Below are positions 2,261 through 54,452 of a DNA stretch of 57,250 nt, piece by piece (position 1 is the stretch's first letter; the number at the start of each line of letters is the position of its first letter). A program made the translations under genes and the position numbers. The stretch comes from Oscillospiraceae bacterium (GTDB taxonomy: Bacteria; Bacillota; Clostridia; Oscillospirales; UBA929). A model generated the notes under the pieces. The model searched no databases, had not been told where the DNA came from, and saw nothing but the letters and a program-made list of their open reading frames with translations. Location of the stretch: contig WRMG01000004.1 of assembly GCA_009777255.1 (NCBI GenBank), positions 1-57,250 of the forward strand, given 5' to 3'.

Positions 2261-2309
2261 AAAAAACCAACCTTTCTCCGCCTATCCTCGGGCGGCAGGT
2301 ATATTTCAC

Positions 2310-2463
2310 TTCGCGGCAAGTATTCTGGCTCATGGTTCATCGCGCCGCGCCAAGTCTTCCCGGTTTCCCAGTGACGTTTTCGGGTTTTCCCGAGGCGCGC
2401 GCTTCCCAAATACAGCGGCGGGACCGCGCGGGATTCTCACCCGCTTCCATAACGCGCAAAGCT
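2310..2463 (-). ncRNA. Cobalamin riboswitch
   Basis: Minus strand GGAAGCGGGTGAGAATCCCGCGCGGTCCCGCCGCTGTA, GTCACTGGGAAACCGGGAAG and B12 box GAGCCAGAATACTTGCC. Confidence 0.92.
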
Positions 2464-2469
2464 GCGTAA

Positions 2470-2499
2470 AGTCTAGCACAGCGGATACGCGCTTGTCAA
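2470..2499 (-). promoter_or_regulatory. sigmaA promoter of the B12 uptake operon
   Basis: Minus strand TTGACA, 18-bp spacer, TG-n-TAGACT. Confidence 0.6.
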
Positions 2500-2517
2500 C
2501 ACAATATTTTACACATA

Positions 2518-2560
2518 CAAAACCCCCGCCAAAAAGCACATTTTGGCGGGGTTTTTGACA
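2518..2560. other. Inverted repeat at the left edge of the invertase island (terminator or recombinase-binding site)
   Basis: AAAACCCCCGCCAAAA-AGCACA-TTTTGGCGGGGTTTT. Confidence 0.5.
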
Positions 2561-2636
2561 GCTTCAAAGAAAAACATCAAGAATCAACCGGAGAAAGATG
2601 TTGTATCTGGCCAAATATCCATGAAGGAGGTATAAA

Positions 2637-3224
2637 ATGATTCAAACATACGGATACATCCGTGTCAGCACAAAAGAACAAAGCGAAGACAGGCAGCTCA
2701 CCGCTATGCGGGAATTCGGAGTTCGGGAGGGTAATATATTTCTTGACAAGCTCTCGGGCAAAGACTTTGAAAGACCCTCATACAGGCGGTTGCTGAAAAA
2801 GCTAAAGCCTGTCGATACCCTTGTTATTAAGAGTATTGACAGGCTCGGCAGAAACTACGAGGAGATTTTAGAGCAGTGGAGATTTATAACAAAAGAGCGG
2901 CGAGCTAATATTGTCGTTCTTGATATGCCGCTGCTGGACACACGGCAAAAGAACCGCGATCTGACTGGAACCTTTATCGCCGACCTTGTTTTGCAGATTC
3001 TCAGCTATGTCGCGCAGACGGAGCGAGAGCTTATACGCCAGCGTCAGGCGGAGGGCATAGCCGCGGCAAAGGCGCGAGGCGTGAGATTCGGCAGACCGCC
3101 GATAGAGCGTCCGCCGCATTTACAAGAGGTTCAGAAAGCGTGGGAGCGCCGTGAAATATCGGCGCGTGAAGCCGCTCGGCGGCTGAATATCAACCGCATG
3201 ACATTTCTGGCGGCCGGACAGTGA
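2637..3224 (+). CDS. Serine recombinase, resolvase/invertase family with C-terminal HTH
   Basis: YGYIRVSTKEQ (catalytic Ser), DTLVIKSIDRLGR, ERELIRQRQAEGIAAAKARGVRFGRP; AAGGAGG RBS. Confidence 0.95.
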   Translation: MIQTYGYIRVSTKEQSEDRQLTAMREFGVREGNIFLDKLSGKDFERPSYRRLLKKLKPVDTLVIKSIDRLGRNYEEILEQWRFITKERRANIVVLDMPLLDTRQKNRDLTGTFIADLVLQILSYVAQTERELIRQRQAEGIAAAKARGVRFGRPPIERPPHLQEVQKAWERREISAREAARRLNINRMTFLAAGQ

Positions 3225-3235
3225 TATTTGTCAAA

Positions 3236-3413
3236 AAAAGTACAGGTTTTTAGCCACACGGCTACGGTATTCAAATTGGCTTTTAATAAATCTTATCGCA
3301 TAAGCACCTTTGGCGGAGCAGCAAGGGTTTGAGGCTTATATTCTCTTTATTTGCCAAGTATACAGCATTTGATTATAGATGTCAAGCATAAGTTGCTAAA
3401 AACCTGTACTTTT
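3236..3413. repeat. Perfect 19-bp inverted repeats bounding a putative invertible segment
   Basis: AAAAGTACAGGTTTTTAGC (3236-3254) and its exact reverse complement GCTAAAAACCTGTACTTTT (3395-3413). Confidence 0.9.
3357..3385 (-). promoter_or_regulatory. sigmaA promoter inside the invertible segment, facing away from the MACPF gene
   Basis: Minus strand TTGACA (3385-3380), 17-bp spacer, TATACT (3362-3357). Confidence 0.85.
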
Positions 3414-3513
3414 CTATACAAATCGTCCCTAAATGCCGCGCCGTATTATCAGGCGGAAAAATATCTTAAAACAGTCTGGCTTAACAAAATAATATAAAGA
3501 GAGGTTAACAAAA

Positions 3514-6500
3514 ATGAAAAGGAAGGCTTTATCTTTCGCGCTGGTTATAGCGTTGTTCGCGGGGCTAGTCCCGGTCGGAAGCATACCGGCAACGGCACTG
3601 GATCAGACCGGCATTGAACGTTATCTATTTAGAGGGTTCAATGTACTTTCAGGCAATGAACTCAGGATTGATGCTCTGCTGCGCCCCAATATTCTGGCTC
3701 CGAATTCCGATCTTGCCGGTCATTACAGAACCGACTCTAATGGGGACACTTATGTGGAAGCGTCCTCGGGTAAGACAATAGAAGACATGGCTATTGCGGC
3801 AGGGATTAATTTATCGGTTTCAACTAGCGTTAGTGGCGGTGTTGGTAGCTTATTCAAAGCGAGCGCAAAAACTAAATTTAACACGAGTGTGAGTACCGCA
3901 TATAAATCCTCCTACGATTCACATTTCTTTCAATCCTCTATATTTACTAAAACCGGTCAGGCTTACATAAACGATATGGAACACCCTGATACAATAAACG
4001 CTGTTCAAAGACAGCTAGACCGCAACTTCCTAAGCGAGCTTATAAACGAAAAAAACATCGAAAGGCTTTTCACAAGGTACGGCACCCACATTCTCACGTC
4101 GTACTCAGTTGGAGGATGGGCGGAATTTCAGACCTCGACCATTAACACAAAAGAAAATAGTGATAATGACGTGAAAATGAAATATGAAACTTCGGTATCG
4201 TTCTCTGGTGTAGGTACAAGTATGGACGCCGCGATGGACCTCGGGGCATATGTTAATGAAAAATACAATTCAGAAAACTATCGTTCATTTTCTTCTGCCC
4301 GCATTGTTGGCGGCTCTGGCGGAATCCCCAATTTTTCAGATCCCAACAGTGTGTCATCGGTATACAACACTTGGCTTGGCACAGTCCCGGCACGTCCCGA
4401 ACTGCTCACAGATAAAAATTTAGTGCTCACCGGTATATGGGAGCTGCTGCCTCAGGGAAACGAAAAGCGGTATATGGAACTGGTTCAGGAGTTTGTCAGA
4501 TTGGCGCAAAAAAGTCATTTAGATTTCTGCAAAGAATTTATCTATAAAGCGGCGGCATCCTTACATATAGAAGCCTCTGTAGATGATACAAGTGACGTGG
4601 CATCATACGACCCGAACACCACAATCCCTATATACACCGCGCAGCAGTTTGCCAACATCGGTGATGCTGATTTACCGGCTAACGGCAACTATATGCTGAT
4701 GAATGATATTAATCTTGATGAAATTAAAGTCTCGACCACCGGATATAGTTCACCATATGTCCTGATGTCTACAGGAAAAGAGTTTAACGGTACTTTTGAT
4801 GGGAATGGATTTACCATCAGCGGTTATAATAATGTGAAAAAAGCGAATTTTACAAGCTTTCCAACTACAGTAAACGTCGGCTTATTCCCTGTTATCGGAG
4901 AAAATGGACACGTAAGAAATCTAATAGTGAAAGGTTCCACGATTATCTATGAAGCTACAAATAATCGTATATCAAGCAACGTTATATATCGGGCAGGAAC
5001 CATTGCGGGACTTAACAAGGGCGTAATCGAAAATTGTCATGTTTCTGAAGAATCTGAGGTAAAAATAAGGGTTTATAGGAGTTCCGAAGCGCGGATTTAT
5101 TCGGGAGGAATTGCCGGTTACAACACTGGTAATATAATTGGGTGCAGTTTTACGAACAGTGATAACAAATATAAATCTGGTGACTATACGGGAAATGTTC
5201 TCGCTAGTGCTCCTGGGCGAGGTGGCACGGTATGGTGTTATTCCGGAGGAATTGCGGGCTGGTCAAACGGAGAAATAGTGGATTGCTATGCAGAGACTTG
5301 GACGCATTCGCGGGGTAGGGGAATGAGCGGTGTCCAAACAAAAGTCTATTTATATTCAGGAGGAATCGCAGGTTTGATAGACACAGGAGGAGTTGTATTA
5401 CGCTCCTTTGCCGATGGAGATGAAAAAACAACAAGAAATTATTCAAAGGAAGGAGAATTGGGTACCGGTAAAATAACAGGAAAGAACTCAGCCGGTTCCG
5501 GCGCGTTGATAGATTGCTTTTATAAAAGCGGAGGTGGAAATGCTGTAGGAAACGGAAGCTCAACCGGAACAACAGCGGTAGCAAATTTCAAAGTTAACGC
5601 AATAGTAGATATATTGCGGCCAGATAAAGATGATTCCAACTCCACATGGATATACGACGGGAATAAAGATCGCCCTACGCATAGAGAACCTGAGTCAGGT
5701 AATTCTCCTTATTTTATAGTAGAATACATAAATGGCAAACCGGAATATTTTGCGGGAGAACTCATGGACACAAATAAGCTGGCAAATAGCATGAGGGTTT
5801 TCTTCACTCCTAGTAAAGGTGTTGTTAAGCCTGTGGAAATAACAGACGCCGTGCAAATCAGATATGATTTTGCCGCCGAGGGAAATGGGTTTATACAATT
5901 CCTGCATCGAGATGGAGATAGCACCTATGCCGGCAAATTAGGTTTTCCGGTAATAGAACGCGATTTAGCGAGAGGAGAGGACCCGACCCACATAAACCTG
6001 AACAGAAGCGGCATTACGATGAAAGCTGGGAGTTCTGTACGATTACGGGTTGCCCTTGAACCGTTGCTTGCAAAGCAGGATATAACATGGGACAGCAGCA
6101 ATGAAGATGTCGTTTTCGTAACACCGTTTGGCGAGGTGCTTGCCATAGAAGAAGGCGAAACTGTCGTAACAGGCACGACGGTCAACGGTCTCACTTCGAC
6201 CTGCCATGTGGTGGTCAGCGGAAGGGTTATGCCGAATGGCATTGATTACGACATAGAAACCGTATTTGTACCGGGCAAAGTAAACGGCGAAATTGAAATG
6301 ACGTCTAACTCAGAAAAAAGCGATGAACCCGAAAATACAGACGACGCAGACGACGCAGACGACGATACAGACGATGACCCAGACGACGATACAGACGACC
6401 CAGACGACCCAGACGACATAGACGACATAGACGACATAGACGAGTCTAATCTTCCTGTGTTCAGAATAAATCTCACCGATGAAACCCTCATTGTTCCAAA

Positions 6501-7281
6501 TGATTATGTGATAGCCGTATACAGTGTAAATGGCGGAGGAAAATGGATCGTCCCGAAAGCCGATACATTCAATGATGTAAAATTTCCTAAGATGCTGCGC
6601 AAGGGCATGACAATGTGGCTTTCAGATAATAAGAGCAACCCCGAAGAAGGGAAACTTGTCAAGTTCGATACTGTTAAATCAGGTCTTACAGTCCCCAAAT
6701 TAGTTGTTAACTATGAAATTGCGTCAGACCCAACAGGCGCTACACTTGGCGACTGGGTTTTAGCTGCGAAAGGCGGAACAGCAGCGGTTAAAAATATTCA
6801 AATTGGCGCCGCAAACGGTAAAGAAGTAGATGATCAAGGCTATGGTGTATTTTTTGATGGTGAGGACAGCGGAATTTCCATTGCGCCCTTGAATAATAAT
6901 GGTAAAGCGGCAAAAGAGGCATATTTCATCAGAACAGCGCCGCATCAAGAGAGTGAATCAGTCTATGTCGCGGCTGGAAAGCCCAAAAAAATCAGCATAA
7001 AAGGTGAAGGGAAAGCGACGAAGTACAAAATAAACGCCAAAAAAAATTCACTTAAGCTAAAGAAAGGTGATCTGTTCTTCTGGGGTGATCCCTATGATCT
7101 TGGTGCAAATCCGTCTGCTGATTCGTCAGCTCAAATAACACCCGCACTGGAGTCGCTGCTATATATCACGGCGGACAAAGGGTCAGAGATCTCGGTAGAA
7201 AATGTGAGCGGCCAAATCGTCGTGTGGAAAGCGGGAACGGCAAAAAAACCTCCAACAGCAAAGCAGATAATAAACAGATAA
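3514..7281 (+). CDS. Secreted multidomain protein: signal peptide, MACPF domain, GLUG-like repeats, Ig-like (Big_2) domain, acidic linker, unknown C-terminal domain
   Basis: MACPF signature YGTHILTSYSVGG (codons from 4078) plus GFNVLSG near the N-terminus; FNGTFDGNGFTISG and repeated YSGGIAG motifs; ITWDSSNEDVVFVTPFGEVLAIEEGETVVT; noticeably AT-richer than the flanks. Confidence 0.85.
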   Translation: MKRKALSFALVIALFAGLVPVGSIPATALDQTGIERYLFRGFNVLSGNELRIDALLRPNILAPNSDLAGHYRTDSNGDTYVEASSGKTIEDMAIAAGINLSVSTSVSGGVGSLFKASAKTKFNTSVSTAYKSSYDSHFFQSSIFTKTGQAYINDMEHPDTINAVQRQLDRNFLSELINEKNIERLFTRYGTHILTSYSVGGWAEFQTSTINTKENSDNDVKMKYETSVSFSGVGTSMDAAMDLGAYVNEKYNSENYRSFSSARIVGGSGGIPNFSDPNSVSSVYNTWLGTVPARPELLTDKNLVLTGIWELLPQGNEKRYMELVQEFVRLAQKSHLDFCKEFIYKAAASLHIEASVDDTSDVASYDPNTTIPIYTAQQFANIGDADLPANGNYMLMNDINLDEIKVSTTGYSSPYVLMSTGKEFNGTFDGNGFTISGYNNVKKANFTSFPTTVNVGLFPVIGENGHVRNLIVKGSTIIYEATNNRISSNVIYRAGTIAGLNKGVIENCHVSEESEVKIRVYRSSEARIYSGGIAGYNTGNIIGCSFTNSDNKYKSGDYTGNVLASAPGRGGTVWCYSGGIAGWSNGEIVDCYAETWTHSRGRGMSGVQTKVYLYSGGIAGLIDTGGVVLRSFADGDEKTTRNYSKEGELGTGKITGKNSAGSGALIDCFYKSGGGNAVGNGSSTGTTAVANFKVNAIVDILRPDKDDSNSTWIYDGNKDRPTHREPESGNSPYFIVEYINGKPEYFAGELMDTNKLANSMRVFFTPSKGVVKPVEITDAVQIRYDFAAEGNGFIQFLHRDGDSTYAGKLGFPVIERDLARGEDPTHINLNRSGITMKAGSSVRLRVALEPLLAKQDITWDSSNEDVVFVTPFGEVLAIEEGETVVTGTTVNGLTSTCHVVVSGRVMPNGIDYDIETVFVPGKVNGEIEMTSNSEKSDEPENTDDADDADDDTDDDPDDDTDDPDDPDDIDDIDDIDESNLPVFRINLTDETLIVPNDYVIAVYSVNGGGKWIVPKADTFNDVKFPKMLRKGMTMWLSDNKSNPEEGKLVKFDTVKSGLTVPKLVVNYEIASDPTGATLGDWVLAAKGGTAAVKNIQIGAANGKEVDDQGYGVFFDGEDSGISIAPLNNNGKAAKEAYFIRTAPHQESESVYVAAGKPKKISIKGEGKATKYKINAKKNSLKLKKGDLFFWGDPYDLGANPSADSSAQITPALESLLYITADKGSEISVENVSGQIVVWKAGTAKKPPTAKQIINR
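6337..6444 (+). repeat. In-frame 9/12-bp tandem repeats encoding an Asp-rich linker
   Basis: GACGACGCA, GACGACCCA and GACGACATA units giving DDADDADDDTDDDPDDDTDDPDDPDDIDDIDDIDE. Confidence 0.9.
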
Positions 7282-7289
7282 TAGACGGT

Positions 7290-7331
7290 ATAAAACCCCG
7301 GTGCAGTCGAGTACTGTGCCGGGATTTTTAT
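7290..7331 (+). terminator. Probable intrinsic terminator after the MACPF gene
   Basis: CCCGGTGCAGT...ACTGTGCCGGG stem followed by ATTTTTA. Confidence 0.65.
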
Positions 7332-20141: not shown

Positions 20142-20634
20142 AGTTACAAGTTAATAGTTACGAGTTACAAGAGGACGGGGGAGCGGTAGTTACAAGTTAC
20201 AAGATACAAGTTACAAGAGGATGACGGGGTACGGGGGACGGGATAAAGTTTGGGGGAAAACACCCGCCGACTGCGGTCGGCCACGGGACGCCGAGGGCGT
20301 CGTCCCCTACAGCCGAACCAGTTGCAAGTTACTAGTTACTAGTTACAAGATACAAGATACAAGTTACAAGTTACAAGAGGATGACGGGGTACGGGGGACG
20401 GGATAAAGTTCGGGGAAAAACACCCGCCGACTGCGGTCGGTCACGGGACGCCGAGGGCGTCGTCCCCTACAGCCGAACCAGTTGCAAGTTACTAGTTACT
20501 AGTTAATAGTTACAAGTTACAAGAGGACGGGGGACGGGGAGTTATAAGTTATAAGTTATAAGTTATAAGTTATAAGTTATAAGAGGATGGGGGCTTCGTT
20601 TCTTCTTGTAACTTGTAACTATTAACTAGTAACT
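20142..20634. repeat. Composite repeat array: heptamer tandems, G-rich spacers and a 160-bp-period duplication carrying two palindrome types
   Basis: AGTTACA/AGTTACT/AGTTATA/AGATACA units; 20209-20345 repeated at 20369-20505; 6x AGTTATA at 20540-20581; inverted heptamers at 20607-20634. Confidence 0.95.
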
Positions 20635-21066
20635 ATCAGCTCGTTGACAGACGAGCATGGCTGTCGCGCCGGCTAGGGTTGAGTTTGAGAGCTGCGCGTC
20701 GGGGATGATCAGCTCCTGCTGCTCGATACGGCGGCCGTCGAGGCTGATTATCTCGCGCTGGAGGGCGAGGAAGAGCCTGTTTTCGTCGATGCTGGAGAGC
20801 GTTACGGTGTTTTTGCCGGACAGGCCGTAGGTGACGACGCGGCCCGCTTGCAGATAGCGGCAGTCGAGCTTTTTGTCGCCCGGCAGGACCGCTATGCGGC
20901 AGCGGCAGGGGTTAAGCGCGTCGGGCAGCGGGCCGTCGGAGACGCAGATGTCACATTCGGGAGGGCGCGGCATGTAGCCGCCCTCGGGGAAAAAGCGCAG
21001 AAGCGATTGCGTGAGCAGGCCCTTTGTCCCTTGCCAGACGCCGATTGTAATCAATGTAAAAACCAC
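20626..21066 (-). CDS. Conserved clostridial hypothetical protein
   Basis: VVTYGLSGKNTVTLSSI...ALQREIISLDGRRIEQQE; GGAG RBS. Confidence 0.7.
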   Translation of the reverse strand: MVFTLITIGVWQGTKGLLTQSLLRFFPEGGYMPRPPECDICVSDGPLPDALNPCRCRIAVLPGDKKLDCRYLQAGRVVTYGLSGKNTVTLSSIDENRLFLALQREIISLDGRRIEQQELIIPDAQLSNSTLAGATAMLVCQRADSY

Positions 21067-48740: not shown

Positions 48741-48791
48741 CAAAACACCCGCCGTCTGCGGACGGCACCCTCTTTACTAAAGAGGGCAAGG
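48741..48791 (+). repeat. 51-bp palindromic repeat, left flank of the DUF559 gene
   Basis: CAAAACACCC-GCCGTC-TGCG-GACGGC-ACCCTCTTTACTAAAGAGGGCAAGG. Confidence 0.92.
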
Positions 48792-48801
48792 ATAGGACAG
48801 A

Positions 48802-49158
48802 TCAATCGTTGTACAAGTCTACATATTTTTGTATCGCCGCACACACTTCGTCAAATGAAGCATCTATCTCTGTGTTGGTAAAACGAAGAACGTGCAGTCC
48901 CAAACTTTCAAATAAATCAGTACGTATGCTATCGTACTCTAAGCCATTGTCTGTATAATGCTGGTTCCCGTCAATTTCAACAACAAGTTTTTTTGACGGA
49001 CATAAAAAATCAACGATATAGTTATCTATAGGTTTTTGTCTTGTGAAAGGACAAGGGTGTTTTCTCAAAAATTCATACCACAATTTATTTTCTTGCGGAG
49101 TGGCGTTTTTACGCAGTTCCTGCGCTCGTGGTTTATACTTGCGATTGTATTGTATCAC
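48802..49158 (-). CDS. DUF559 (Vsr-like PD-(D/E)XK) endonuclease
   Basis: RAQELRKNATPQE.KLW..LR, FTRQKPIDNYIVDF.C..KKLVVEIDG.QH, D..RT...LGL.VLRFTN. Confidence 0.93.
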   Translation of the reverse strand: MIQYNRKYKPRAQELRKNATPQENKLWYEFLRKHPCPFTRQKPIDNYIVDFLCPSKKLVVEIDGNQHYTDNGLEYDSIRTDLFESLGLHVLRFTNTEIDASFDEVCAAIQKYVDLYND

Positions 49159-49176
49159 CGTATCATCTCCATATGA

Positions 49177-49227
49177 CCTTGCCCTCTTTAGTGAAGAGGG
49201 TGCCGCCCGTAGGCGGCGGGTGTTTTG
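49177..49227 (-). repeat. 51-bp palindromic repeat, right flank of the DUF559 gene (inverted)
   Basis: Reverse complement matches 48741-48791 at 47 of 51 positions. Confidence 0.92.
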
Positions 49228-53638: not shown

Positions 53639-53694
53639 ATCCAGTCTATTTTGGATATTATATCATACTCACCGGTTATGTCAACCATAAATTG

Positions 53695-53723
53695 TTGACA
53701 AACGCCGGACGACCTGTTATAAT
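53695..53723 (+). promoter_or_regulatory. sigmaA promoter of thiT
   Basis: TTGACA-17-TG-n-TATAAT. Confidence 0.85.
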
Positions 53724-53731
53724 TCCGGCTT

Positions 53732-53825
53732 ACAGGGGTGCTTTGCACAGCGGGCGCTGTGACGGGCTGAGACGGCTTTATGCCGAACCCTTGAACTTGA
53801 TCCGGTTAATACCGGCGTAAGGAGA
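53732..53825 (+). ncRNA. TPP riboswitch
   Basis: GGGGTGC...GCTGAGA...ACCCTTGAACTTGATCCGGTTAATACCGGCGTAAGGAG; the 3' arm overlaps the RBS. Confidence 0.93.
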
Positions 53826-53831
53826 GAAAAA

Positions 53832-54452
53832 ATGAATAACACTGTCAAACGTCTGACAACAGGCGCGATGCTGGTCGCGCTCTCAGCTCTTTTATCAATG
53901 CTTGTGATCTACCGGCTTCCGTACGGCGGCTCGGTAACGGCGTTCAGTATGCTGCCGGTGTGCGTGTTCGCCTATAAGTACGGGCTTAAATGGGGGCTTT
54001 TGGGGGGGCTTGCGTTCAGCCTGACGCGCATACTGCTGGGCAGTCTGGGCGGCGCGGCGTTCGCCTCGATGGATCTTTTGGATCTGACGCTGATGCTCTT
54101 TCTGGATTACATAGCGGCGTATACATTTTTGGGGCTTGCCGCCGTGACGCGCGGGAAACTTAAAAGCGAGCGTTCGGGCCTTGTGTGGGGAATAGTTATC
54201 GCGTGCGCGGCGCGGCTGCTTGCCCACTCGCTGTCGGGCTACATACTGTTCAGGCAGTACGCCGAATGGTTTTTCTCGCAGGAGGGCTTTACCTTCGGGG
54301 CATGGGTGCTGGACAACCTCGGCGGCCAGGGGCTGATGATATTCTACTCGGTTTTCTATAACGCGATGTTCTTAGTGCCGGAAACATTAATAACCGTTGC
54401 GGCGGGCGCGATATTAATGAGCGCGCTGGGAAAGCGCATACTCGCCGATTAA
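53832..54452 (+). CDS. thiT: ECF thiamine transporter S-component
   Basis: LPYGGSVT..SMLP, LDYIAAY..LGLA, H.LSG..LF, YS.FYN; downstream of the TPP riboswitch. Confidence 0.9.
   Translation: MNNTVKRLTTGAMLVALSALLSMLVIYRLPYGGSVTAFSMLPVCVFAYKYGLKWGLLGGLAFSLTRILLGSLGGAAFASMDLLDLTLMLFLDYIAAYTFLGLAAVTRGKLKSERSGLVWGIVIACAARLLAHSLSGYILFRQYAEWFFSQEGFTFGAWVLDNLGGQGLMIFYSVFYNAMFLVPETLITVAAGAILMSALGKRILAD

What the first reader, a model, noticed from the sequence alone, without database searches (positions are those of the whole stretch)
2637..7281. Invertase-controlled promoter switch (inverton) in front of a secreted MACPF protein, captured OFF
Seen: a serine invertase ends at 3224, and 12 bp later a perfect 19-bp inverted repeat pair begins (3236-3254 / 3395-3413, extending imperfectly outward via ATTTGT). 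The 140 bp between them hold TTGACA-17-TATACT on the minus strand, pointing away from the MACPF gene at 3514. I see no comparable plus-strand promoter ahead of that gene. Established: Hin/hix and Bacteroides Mpi serine invertases flip promoter segments to phase-vary surface structures. Inference: inversion turns this promoter toward the MACPF gene, giving ON/OFF subpopulations for a pore-forming-family protein. In the OFF state the promoter would fire antisense into the invertase gene, a possible feedback loop.
Basis: partly seen in the sequence, partly recalled or inferred. Interest (0 to 1): 0.88.

Follow-up and report, generated by a model that had tools for sequence, protein, structure and literature searches.

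The report
Invertible promoter before secreted MACPF gene
A small DNA-flipping enzyme gene sits next to a 140-base segment that carries a strong promoter and is bounded by matching inverted sites, so this gut bacterium probably switches a secreted perforin-like protein on and off by flipping the segment; the switch type is already well known.

Summary
A 195-aa serine recombinase (2637-3224) is followed 11 nt later by a perfect 19-bp inverted repeat pair (3236-3254 / 3395-3413). The repeats bound a 140-bp segment with TTGACA-17-TATACT on the minus strand, pointing away from a signal-peptide MACPF gene (3514-7281). No sequencing run was listed, so flipping at this locus could not be tested.

The comparative evidence is strong:
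- Among homologous recombinase loci in gut and rumen Clostridia, 31 of 89 have an inverted repeat pair starting at the recombinase stop codon, against 3 of 560 control windows.
- Each repeat arm is a dyad-symmetric crossover-type site.
- The enclosed 80-280-bp segments are enriched in sigma-70-type promoters. These point to the downstream gene in 9 loci, to the recombinase in 14, and are ambiguous in 9.
- In two Flavonifractor genomes the orthologous segment is inverted between collinear flanks.
- A MACPF homologue in another genus of the same family is also preceded by such a site.

Verdict: a real invertible-promoter switch, very probably captured OFF. It is a new member of a known kind. The recombinase is closest to Sin, not to Hin or Mpi. 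The antisense feedback idea is untested. Interest is moderate.

The parts
2524..2551 (.). Bidirectional terminator-like hairpin that separates the cassette from the leftward cobalamin-riboswitch operon
   Evidence: 11-pair stem, 7 GC pairs; the T-run is good on the + strand and weaker on the - strand, repeat I2
2555..2584 (+). Promoter-like site for the recombinase gene (TTGACA-18-AAGAAT, 10/12)
   Evidence: a consensus match only
2637..3224 (+). Small serine recombinase (invertase), 195 aa. It has a catalytic RVS motif near the N-terminus, and its C-terminal part aligns to the DNA-binding end of gamma-delta resolvase
   Evidence: PF00239, 3e-32; Sin/Bin3 2r0q 8e-27; gamma-delta 1zr2 5e-22 aligned over residues 4-189; Gin 4m6f 5e-18
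3226..3257 (+). Left recombination site (IRL). The perfect core is 3236-3254. The dyad half-sites are 3230-3241 and 3244-3255, around the central dinucleotide AC at 3242-3243
   Evidence: 7 of 10 dyad matches
3255..3394 (.). 140-bp segment predicted to invert
   Evidence: Bounded by the perfect repeat cores. Equivalent segments in relatives are described
3357..3385 (-). Sigma-70-type promoter TTGACA-17-TATACT, pointing toward the recombinase gene (OFF for the MACPF gene). The transcript start is expected near 3350
   Evidence: The same place and orientation are conserved in the two closest relatives L005 and L006
3392..3423 (-). Right recombination site (IRR). The perfect core is 3395-3413 and the central dinucleotide is at 3406-3407 (GT on the + strand)
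3466..3493 (+). Weak fixed promoter-like site (TTAAAA-16-AATAAT, 9/12) outside the segment; a possible source of basal expression
3499..3504 (+). Ribosome-binding site GAGAGG, 9 nt before the ATG
   Evidence: Read
3514..7281 (+). Gene for a 1255-aa secreted MACPF-domain protein. It has a signal-peptide-like N-terminus, MACPF at residues 115-297, a GLUG region, Big_2 at 827-891, an acidic linker and an unassigned C-terminal part
   Evidence: (Plu-MACPF 2qp2, 2e-7)

Best explanation
This is a cis-encoded serine-invertase promoter switch (inverton). The recombinase made from 2637-3224 is proposed to bind the two dyad-symmetric sites at 3226-3257 and 3392-3423, which lie in inverted orientation. 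It would cut both at the central AC/GT dinucleotide and rotate the 140-bp segment between them.

In the assembled orientation the segment's strong promoter fires leftward, away from the MACPF gene (OFF). After inversion the promoter would sit about 10 nt inside the left site and fire rightward, through the rest of the segment and the right site, into the MACPF gene. The leader would be roughly 215 nt (ON). Part of the population would then secrete the MACPF protein.

Shown here: the anatomy; its family-wide recurrence; promoters in both orientations among relatives; and one true inversion between orthologous loci of relatives.

Inferred: that this copy still flips; that the promoter is active; that OFF means low MACPF expression; and what the MACPF protein does.
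For: Anatomy at this locus
- The recombinase, the 19-bp perfect repeat, the 11/12 promoter and the MACPF ORF are all present.
- The promoter is rare by chance: 9 such sites in 57 kb, and 111 of 20,000 shuffles.

The same architecture recurs in relatives
- 31 of 89 homologous recombinase loci with at least 400 bp of downstream sequence have a repeat pair (score 12 or more) starting within -15 to +60 of the stop codon, with 40-400 bp between the arms. Only 3 of 560 control windows in the same loci do.
- Each arm is itself a crossover-type dyad (A-rich, GT, NN, AC, T-rich). At least 7 of 10 dyad matches were found in 22 of 32 loci, against 320 of 2000 background windows.
- Segments are enriched in promoters. 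15 of 32 have a site at 10/12 or better, against a mean of 2.1 and a maximum of 7 in 100 shuffles. 8 of 32 reach 11/12 or better, against a mean of 0.18.

Both orientations occur
- The stronger promoter points to the downstream gene in 9 loci, to the recombinase in 14, and is ambiguous in 9, of 32.

A direct inversion in relatives
- L084 (Flavonifractor sp. An306) and L095 (Ca. F. merdavium) have collinear flanks at 82-89% identity. The repeat-bounded 121 bp aligns at 82.6% in minus orientation. The inner segment is identical at 70 positions when inverted, against 47 when direct, for inner segments of 91 and 87 nt.

The closest relatives
- The two closest relatives (L005 at 79% and L006 at 76% recombinase identity) keep sites and a TTGAC(A/C)-17 promoter at the same place and orientation, although their cargo genes differ.

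MACPF link in another genus
- A MACPF homologue in genome G009 (36% identity, another genus of the same family) starts 35 nt after a site of the same class. That genome holds three further complete invertons with the identical site, ahead of other genes. Two of these encode proteins with signal-peptide-like N-termini.

Cargo
- Cargo across the family is typical for phase variation: secreted or surface proteins, a Wzz capsule protein and helicase/restriction-type genes.
Against: - No read-level evidence exists for this locus. No sequencing run was listed, and the assembly holds a single orientation with no alternative contig.
- No terminator-like site lies between the recombinase gene and the MACPF gene in either orientation. 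Read-through from the recombinase promoter, or the weak 9/12 sites, could give orientation-independent expression.
- 58 of 89 homologous loci showed no repeat pair at my threshold. At least L006 and L029 have imperfect pairs by eye.
- The protein family also includes 54-57% identical 'recombinase family protein' genes on Bacillus and Enterococcus plasmids. Homology alone therefore does not prove invertase function.
- Here and in L005 and L006 the promoter lies at the far end of the segment and reads across it. In most relatives it lies at the exit end. No ON-state example of this particular geometry was found.
- The same-genus MACPF homologue in G002 has a fixed TTGACA-17-TAATAT promoter and a divergent HTH_3 gene, with no inverton.
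Confidence: 0.75

Rival explanations
1. The switch flips, but its main output is not ON/OFF control of the MACPF gene. That gene would be expressed mostly by read-through from the recombinase promoter or from the weak fixed promoter. The invertible promoter would mainly modulate this, by transcriptional interference or antisense in one orientation and a boost in the other, and would set recombinase levels.
For: No terminator-like site lies between 3224 and 3513 in either orientation. The recombinase and cargo genes are co-directional in the 32 repeat-positive loci. A 9/12 site lies outside the segment at 3466-3493.
Against: The fixed sites are weak (9/12, and the in-segment one lacks the final T of the -10 box) and are not conserved in L005 or L006. 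The segment promoters of the family are much stronger than chance. Their mirrored positions in the ON-like and OFF-like loci fit classic ON/OFF control.
Confidence: 0.12
2. The recombinase is a resolvase-type remnant of a mobile element inside a low-GC island. The inverted repeats would be static binding or leftover sites that no longer recombine, and the promoter would be a fixed antisense or orphan promoter.
For: The closest solved relatives are resolvases: Sin/Bin3 and gamma-delta. Plasmid recombinases are 54-57% identical. The cassette at 2560-7300 has 41-49% GC against 55-58% in the flanks. Only one orientation is seen.
Against: The sites are inverted and lie downstream of the gene, not in a res-like array upstream. 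The two 19-bp cores are perfectly identical, which argues for maintenance. The same arrangement recurs at the stop codon of many relatives (31 of 89 against 3 of 560), and a demonstrated inversion exists in L084/L095. The recombinase ORF is intact with its catalytic motif. No transposase was found in the ORFs scanned between 265 and 13715.
Confidence: 0.08
3. Chance coincidence of a repeat pair and a promoter-like match in an AT-rich spacer.
For: Intergenic AT-rich DNA yields promoter-like hexamers. 8 sites were found in 2300-3800 against 1.8 expected, mostly at 9-10/12.
Against: The joint occurrence at the recombinase stop codon, repeated across dozens of species, is far beyond chance.
Confidence: 0.02

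Closest known systems
Hin/hix (Salmonella flagellar switch) and the Gin/Cin/Pin DNA invertases
   Same: A small serine recombinase of about 190 aa is encoded at the switch. Two dyad-symmetric sites in inverted orientation surround a 2-bp centre. In Hin the flipped segment carries a promoter that gives ON/OFF expression of a surface protein. These facts about Hin/Gin are recalled knowledge; the site anatomy here comes.
   Different: Here the segment is only 140 bp and lies wholly outside the recombinase gene. By sequence the protein is nearer Sin/Bin3 (8e-27) and gamma-delta (5e-22) than Gin (5e-18). No Fis/enhancer equivalent is known or testable here. The host is a gut Clostridia-type MAG.
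Mpi master invertase and the polysaccharide promoter invertons of Bacteroides fragilis
   Same: A serine recombinase flips short promoter segments that control surface or secreted products of a gut anaerobe. In G009 several invertons share one exact site and have no adjacent recombinase, which resembles Mpi-type action in trans. Papers seen as search listings and abstracts only: PMC10403206 and PMC4747536.
   Different: The NCBIfam Mpi-family model scores 55.7 bits against a cut-off of 272, so this is not an Mpi-family member. In this window the recombinase has one private inverton directly at its stop codon. The promoter is sigma-70-type, not a Bacteroides-type promoter.
Sin/Bin3 and gamma-delta/Tn3 resolvases
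   Same: These are the best sequence matches among solved structures. They share the catalytic domain and, by alignment to gamma-delta residues 3-174, the C-terminal DNA-binding region.
   Different: Resolvases act on directly repeated multi-subsite res sites to delete DNA (recalled). Here there are two single dyad sites in inverted orientation, 140 bp apart, around a promoter.
Catalogued invertons of gut bacteria (PhaseFinder, DeepInverton, hCom2 survey)
   Same: A short inverted-repeat-flanked intergenic promoter segment next to a recombinase and ahead of a surface or secreted gene. The hCom2 survey reports invertons in Clostridia-like Firmicutes_A, with a median of 3 per genome (passages read in PMC11892184). 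DeepInverton reports many Firmicutes invertons in human metagenomes (passages read in PMC11602134).
   Different: The Clostridia inverton group highlighted in PMC11892184 (group 139) is linked to tyrosine-type recombinases. No text I could search describes this serine-recombinase, stop-codon-adjacent family or a MACPF cargo in Firmicutes. Supplementary tables were closed and may list members.
BSAP MACPF toxins of Bacteroidales; Plu-MACPF; Mpf2Ba1
   Same: The cargo carries a MACPF domain (Pfam). It shows weak similarity to the BSAP5a family model (26.7 bits), to Plu-MACPF 2qp2 (2e-7) and to Mpf2Ba1 (0.003-0.004).
   Different: It falls far below the BSAP5a cut-off of 500 bits. It is much larger (1255 aa), with GLUG, Big_2 and an unassigned C-terminal part. 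Only 6 homologues (24-56% identity) were found in the 5.8-billion-protein set at 690-2197 aa, two of them with dockerin and cohesin domains. Its function is untested.

Membership tests
Small serine recombinases (resolvase/invertase, Pfam PF00239) | N-terminal catalytic domain with the serine nucleophile in an R-x-S context | tested here: met
   PF00239 at 3e-32 over residues 5-149. YIRVST aligns to the YARVSS/YARVST motifs of Sin and gamma-delta.
Small serine recombinases (resolvase/invertase, Pfam PF00239) | C-terminal helix-turn-helix DNA-binding domain | tested here: inconclusive
   The alignment to gamma-delta resolvase runs to query residue 189 and chain residue 174, covering the DNA-binding end. 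No Pfam HTH family passed E 0.001.
Hin/Gin-type DNA inversion systems | Two dyad-symmetric crossover sites in inverted orientation with an identical, non-palindromic central dinucleotide | tested here: met
   Sites at 3226-3257 and 3392-3423. The centre is AC in both when read in the same sense, with 7 of 10 dyad matches.
Hin/Gin-type DNA inversion systems | Inversion observed (both orientations present) | not testable with these tools
   No sequencing run was listed and only one orientation is assembled. Inversion is seen only between the orthologous loci of relatives L084 and L095.
Hin/Gin-type DNA inversion systems | Fis-dependent recombinational enhancer | not tested
   No model for such an element was available. 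The requirement itself is recalled knowledge.
Hin/Gin-type DNA inversion systems | Closest sequence relatives are invertases | tested here: not met
   Sin/Bin3 at 8e-27 and gamma-delta at 5e-22 rank above Gin at 5e-18.
Mpi family master DNA invertase (NCBIfam NF009949) | Score at or above the curated cut-off of 272 bits | tested here: not met
   55.7 bits.
Invertible promoter (inverton) | Inverted repeats flank a short intergenic segment next to a recombinase gene | tested here: met
   The family-wide control gave 31 of 89 against 3 of 560.
Invertible promoter (inverton) | A promoter inside the segment that faces the regulated gene in only one orientation | tested here: met
   An 11/12 site on the minus strand, against 9/12 as the best plus-strand site. 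This is a consensus match only; promoter activity was not measured.
MACPF/CDC superfamily | MACPF domain above the Pfam gathering score | tested here: met
   38.1 bits against 21.5, residues 115-297. Plu-MACPF 2qp2 matches at 2e-7.
MACPF/CDC superfamily | Pore formation or membrane attack | not testable with these tools
   No structure model or assay was made.

The most novel reading that the evidence does not exclude
Gut and rumen Clostridia carry a large, so far undescribed family of Sin-like serine invertases. Each has a private hix-like promoter inverton placed at its own stop codon, and in some genomes (G009) the system has expanded into a multi-inverton regulon flipped in trans.

In this bacterium and in G009 the system makes a rare, giant secreted MACPF protein phase-variable. 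That protein could be a bet-hedged pore-forming weapon or adhesin of a Firmicute. The OFF-state promoter, reading antisense through the invertase gene, could stabilise the OFF state.
Probability: 0.2. Interest if true: 0.7.

Novelty: new member of a known kind. Interest (0 to 1): 0.5.

Why it matters
Invertible promoters are a main source of cell-to-cell variation in gut bacteria, but they are well studied almost only in Bacteroides, enterobacteria and C. difficile. This locus is a compact, self-contained example in an uncultured Clostridia-type bacterium: recombinase, two 32-nt sites, a 140-bp promoter segment and one cargo gene.

The comparison made here points to a widespread serine-recombinase inverton family with recognisable sites. 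That could improve read-free prediction of invertons in Firmicutes. It also suggests that MACPF-domain proteins, known as antagonistic toxins in Bacteroidales, may be phase-variable in Firmicutes. The mechanism itself would not surprise a specialist.

Tried and rejected
Sequencing runs. The search with window 2600-4600 listed none, so read laying could not be used. No RNA holder was listed either. This is no evidence either way.

Metagenome scan. The scan with the MACPF N-terminus gave only two loci at 45% identity over 58 residues. It was useless for same-species orientation polymorphism and spent the single metagenome scan.

All-against-all BLAST of the 32 inner segments gave only the L084/L095 pair. 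The L104/L093 sister pair shows opposite promoter calls, but only weak inverted similarity (score 5.0 against -4.5). I do not count it as an inversion.

The tree of 96 recombinases was the quick method only, because the careful search did not finish. Repeat-positive loci are scattered across it (23 changes for 36 rows, shuffled mean 29.1), so there is no clean invertase clade.

Further searches:
- All 30 genomes of the family hold no closer relatives than L005 and L006.
- The G009 inverton sequence was found only in G009 among 8 genomes of its genus, with all copies in one orientation.
- An Rfam scan of 2400-3700 found nothing inside the switch.

Leftward-operon idea rejected. I considered that the promoter might drive the leftward operon. 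That operon has its own promoter-like site and a cobalamin riboswitch, and a hairpin lies between them.

Plus-strand site TTGCCA-17-TATAGA rejected as the real promoter. It lacks the final T of the -10 box and is not conserved in L005 or L006.

Literature. Searches found no description of this family or of a MACPF inverton in Firmicutes. Supplements were closed.

Full report
**Observation**

The window is one whole 57,250-bp contig of a 1.17-Mb, 64%-complete assembly.

The recombinase and its sites:
- The ORF at 2637-3224 (+) encodes a 195-aa protein with the Pfam Resolvase catalytic domain (E 3e-32).
- Eleven bases after its stop codon begins a perfect 19-bp inverted repeat, 3236-3254 / 3395-3413.
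- The repeat extends to 32 nt at 88% complementarity, 3226-3257 / 3392-3423.

The promoter in the segment:
- The 140 bp between the arms hold TTGACA-17-TATACT on the minus strand, at 3385..3357. It scores 11 of 12 and is the best promoter-like site in 2300-3800.
- Only 9 sites this good exist on both strands of the whole window.
- Only 111 of 20,000 shuffles of the segment produce one.

The plus strand ahead of the next gene offers only 9/12 sites.

The next gene, 3514-7281, encodes a 1255-aa protein with these features:
- a signal-peptide-like N-terminus, judged by inspection;
- a Pfam MACPF domain (38.1 bits against a cut-off of 21.5);
- a GLUG region;
- a Big_2 domain;
- an acidic linker;
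- an unassigned C-terminal part.

**Context**

The cassette lies among housekeeping genes: rplJ, cytidine deaminase, an RsmE-type methyltransferase and uvrB. Its GC content is 41-49%, against 55-58% in the flanks, so it looks like an acquired island.

To the left lies a minus-strand operon, separated from the recombinase gene by a bidirectional hairpin at 2524-2551. That operon has its own promoter-like site and a cobalamin riboswitch at 2298-2498 (72.7 bits). This argues against the switch promoter serving the left-hand genes.

The 19-mer occurs only at the two arms in this assembly, at up to 3 mismatches. No alternative-orientation contig exists.

**Direct test**

The single metagenome scan, with the MACPF N-terminus, returned only two irrelevant loci. 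Everything below is comparative.

**The family**

I collected 100 recombinase loci from two searches:
- Relatives of the assembly: 37 of 61 genomes matched, and 20 loci were kept.
- One genome per species: 540 relatives, of which the best 80 were kept, at 61-74% identity. Nearly all are gut or rumen Clostridia.

*Repeat pairs at the stop codon.* 89 of the 100 loci have an intact recombinase ORF and at least 400 bp downstream. In 31 of them a repeat pair (score 12 or more) starts within -15 to +60 of the stop codon, with 40-400 bp between the arms. The same search in 560 control windows of the same loci found 3.

The figure of 31 is a lower bound. L006 and L029 have imperfect pairs by eye. Five more loci were picked up by a wider search.

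*Site structure.* Each arm is itself a dyad: A-rich, GT, two central bases, AC, T-rich.
- At least 7 of 10 dyad matches were found in 22 of 32 loci, against 320 of 2000 background windows.
- At least 8 of 10 were found in 15 of 32, against 78 of 2000.
- The window's site reads GTCAAAAAAAGT-AC-AGGTTTTTAGCC.
- This is the form expected for a small serine recombinase that cuts with a 2-bp stagger at the dyad centre (established knowledge, recalled).

*Promoter content of the enclosed segments*:
- 15 of 32 carry a site at 10/12 or better, against a mean of 2.1 and a maximum of 7 in shuffles.
- 8 of 32 reach 11/12 or better, against a mean of 0.18.

*Orientation.* By an ad hoc score, the stronger promoter faces the downstream gene in 9 loci, the recombinase in 14, and is ambiguous in 9. 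In most of the clear cases the promoter lies near the end through which it exits. The two classes are therefore mirror images, as expected if one design flips.

**A real inversion in relatives**

L084 (Flavonifractor sp. An306) and L095 (Candidatus Flavonifractor merdavium) share collinear flanks at 82-89% identity. The repeat-bounded 121 bp aligns at 82.6% in minus orientation. The inner segments are 91 and 87 nt long and are identical at 70 positions when inverted, against 47 when direct. Their recombinases are 63-64% identical to the one in the window.

**Closest relatives and the MACPF link**

The window's recombinase groups with L005 (79%) and L006 (76%), in a clade that also holds L026-L028 (quick tree, SH-aLRT 99).

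L005 and L006 keep the sites and a TTGAC(A/C)-17 promoter at the right end of the segment, pointing leftward exactly as here. Their cargo differs: an SNF2/ResIII helicase-type gene in L005 and a small protein in L006.

MACPF homologues are rare:
- 6 were found in the 5.8-billion-protein set, at 24-56% identity and 690-2197 aa.
- 5 of 401 genomes of the order, including the window's own, had a match.

One of these is in G009, another genus of the same family, at 36% identity with Pfam MACPF at 22.3 bits. It starts 35 nt after a perfect site of the same class, and its contig begins inside the segment.

G009 holds three more complete invertons with the identical 20-nt site and near-identical segments. 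Their promoter, TTGACA-17-TAAACT, points away from the genes (my reading of the sequence). The genes behind them are:
- a BspA-type LRR protein;
- an NPCBM/BACON/Flg_new protein;
- a 271-aa protein with no Pfam match.

The first two have signal-peptide-like N-termini. The recombinase-like genes of G009 lie on other contigs, which suggests action in trans there.

The same-genus homologue in G002 (40% identity) instead has a fixed TTGACA-17-TAATAT promoter (my reading of the sequence) and a divergent HTH_3 gene.

Cargo elsewhere in the family includes:
- an RCC1-repeat secreted protein;
- a Wzz chain-length determinant;
- a GLUG/M26-type secreted protein;
- a VWA/DUF7601 adhesin-like protein;
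- helicase/restriction-type proteins;
- a transporter;
- TnpB.

**Mechanism proposed**

The recombinase binds the two inverted dyad sites, exchanges strands at the central AC/GT and inverts 3255-3394.

As assembled, the promoter fires leftward, with a start expected near 3350, across the left site and antisense into the 3' end of the recombinase gene. This is OFF for the MACPF gene.

After inversion, the promoter would lie just inside the left site and fire rightward across the segment and the right site. The leader would be about 215 nt, running to the ribosome-binding site at 3499-3504 and the ATG at 3514. This is ON.

I found no terminator-like structure in this leader in either orientation. 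That permits the ON reading, but it also means read-through from the recombinase promoter (2555-2584, 10/12) could leak into the MACPF gene. In the OFF state the converging strong promoter might reduce that leak and the recombinase mRNA. This feedback is inference only.

**Comparison with known systems**

It works like Hin/hix and like the Bacteroides promoter invertons. By sequence, the recombinase is nearest to Sin/Bin3 (8e-27) and gamma-delta resolvase (5e-22), ahead of Gin (5e-18).

It fails the Mpi-family cut-off, at 55.7 against 272 bits. It has 54-57% identical relatives annotated only as recombinases on Bacillus and Enterococcus plasmids, and 56-67% identical ones on unannotated human-faecal phage-labelled contigs.

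Inverton surveys report invertons in Clostridia-like Firmicutes:
- In PMC11892184 I read passages. Its highlighted Clostridia group is linked to tyrosine recombinases.
- In PMC11602134 I read passages.

My text searches found no description of this serine-recombinase family or of a MACPF inverton in Firmicutes.

**Verdict**

It is a new member of a known kind, and its interest is moderate. The value lies in the compact architecture, the recognisable site class across many gut Clostridia, and the rare MACPF cargo that is inverton-linked in two genera.

Noticed in passing
window 2298-2498 (-): A cobalamin riboswitch (RF00174, 72.7 bits) lies ahead of the minus-strand DUF4430 gene at 1850-2260. 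A promoter-like TTGACA-18-TAGACT sits at 2499..2470.
   Followed up: partly
window 53724-53840 (+): A TPP riboswitch (RF00059, 66.5 bits), with 12/12 promoter-like sites on both strands near 53684-53695.
   Followed up: no
window 48741-48791 / 49177-49227: A 51-nt inverted repeat (92%) flanks a 118-aa minus-strand ORF at 48802-49158. By eye the ORF resembles a DUF559-type endonuclease. The arms contain hairpins.
   Followed up: no
window 20142-20645: A dense block of direct and inverted AGTTACAAG-type short repeats of unknown nature.
   Followed up: no
G009: C3:1-123, C3:4060-4246, C10:35014-35200, C19:32119-32304 (loci L112-L118): One exact 20-nt site occurs 7 times, forming three complete invertons plus one cut by a contig start. 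All are in the same orientation. They lie ahead of a MACPF homologue, a BspA-LRR protein, an NPCBM/BACON protein and a 271-aa protein. The recombinase-like genes lie on other contigs, which suggests a regulon flipped in trans.
   Followed up: partly
L013 (G003:C5), L021 (G028:C31), L089 (Christensenella hongkongensis HKU16): In L013 and L021, at contig ends, long inverted repeats of 103 and 141 nt flank the recombinase gene itself. In L089 a 75-nt repeat folds back over the gene's 3' end and the adjacent segment. This is either assembly fold-back at an inverton or a Hin-like design with the recombinase inside the segment.
   Followed up: no
L094, L102 (TnpB is the first gene after the repeat pair); L095 (TnpB-like gene 336 nt after it): The gene after the recombinase-linked repeat pair is a TnpB/OrfB_IS605-type gene (Pfam for L094; N-terminal similarity by eye for the others). 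This hints at a link between this recombinase family and IS elements.
   Followed up: no
L022, L026, L028, L035, L061, L064, L087, L089, L098: Several contigs of relatives end within about 400 bp after the recombinase stop codon. This may reflect assembly breaks at mixed-orientation or repeated invertons. No control was run.
   Followed up: no
window 2560-7300: The recombinase-switch-MACPF cassette has 41-49% GC, against 55-58% in the housekeeping flanks, so it is probably horizontally acquired.
   Followed up: partly
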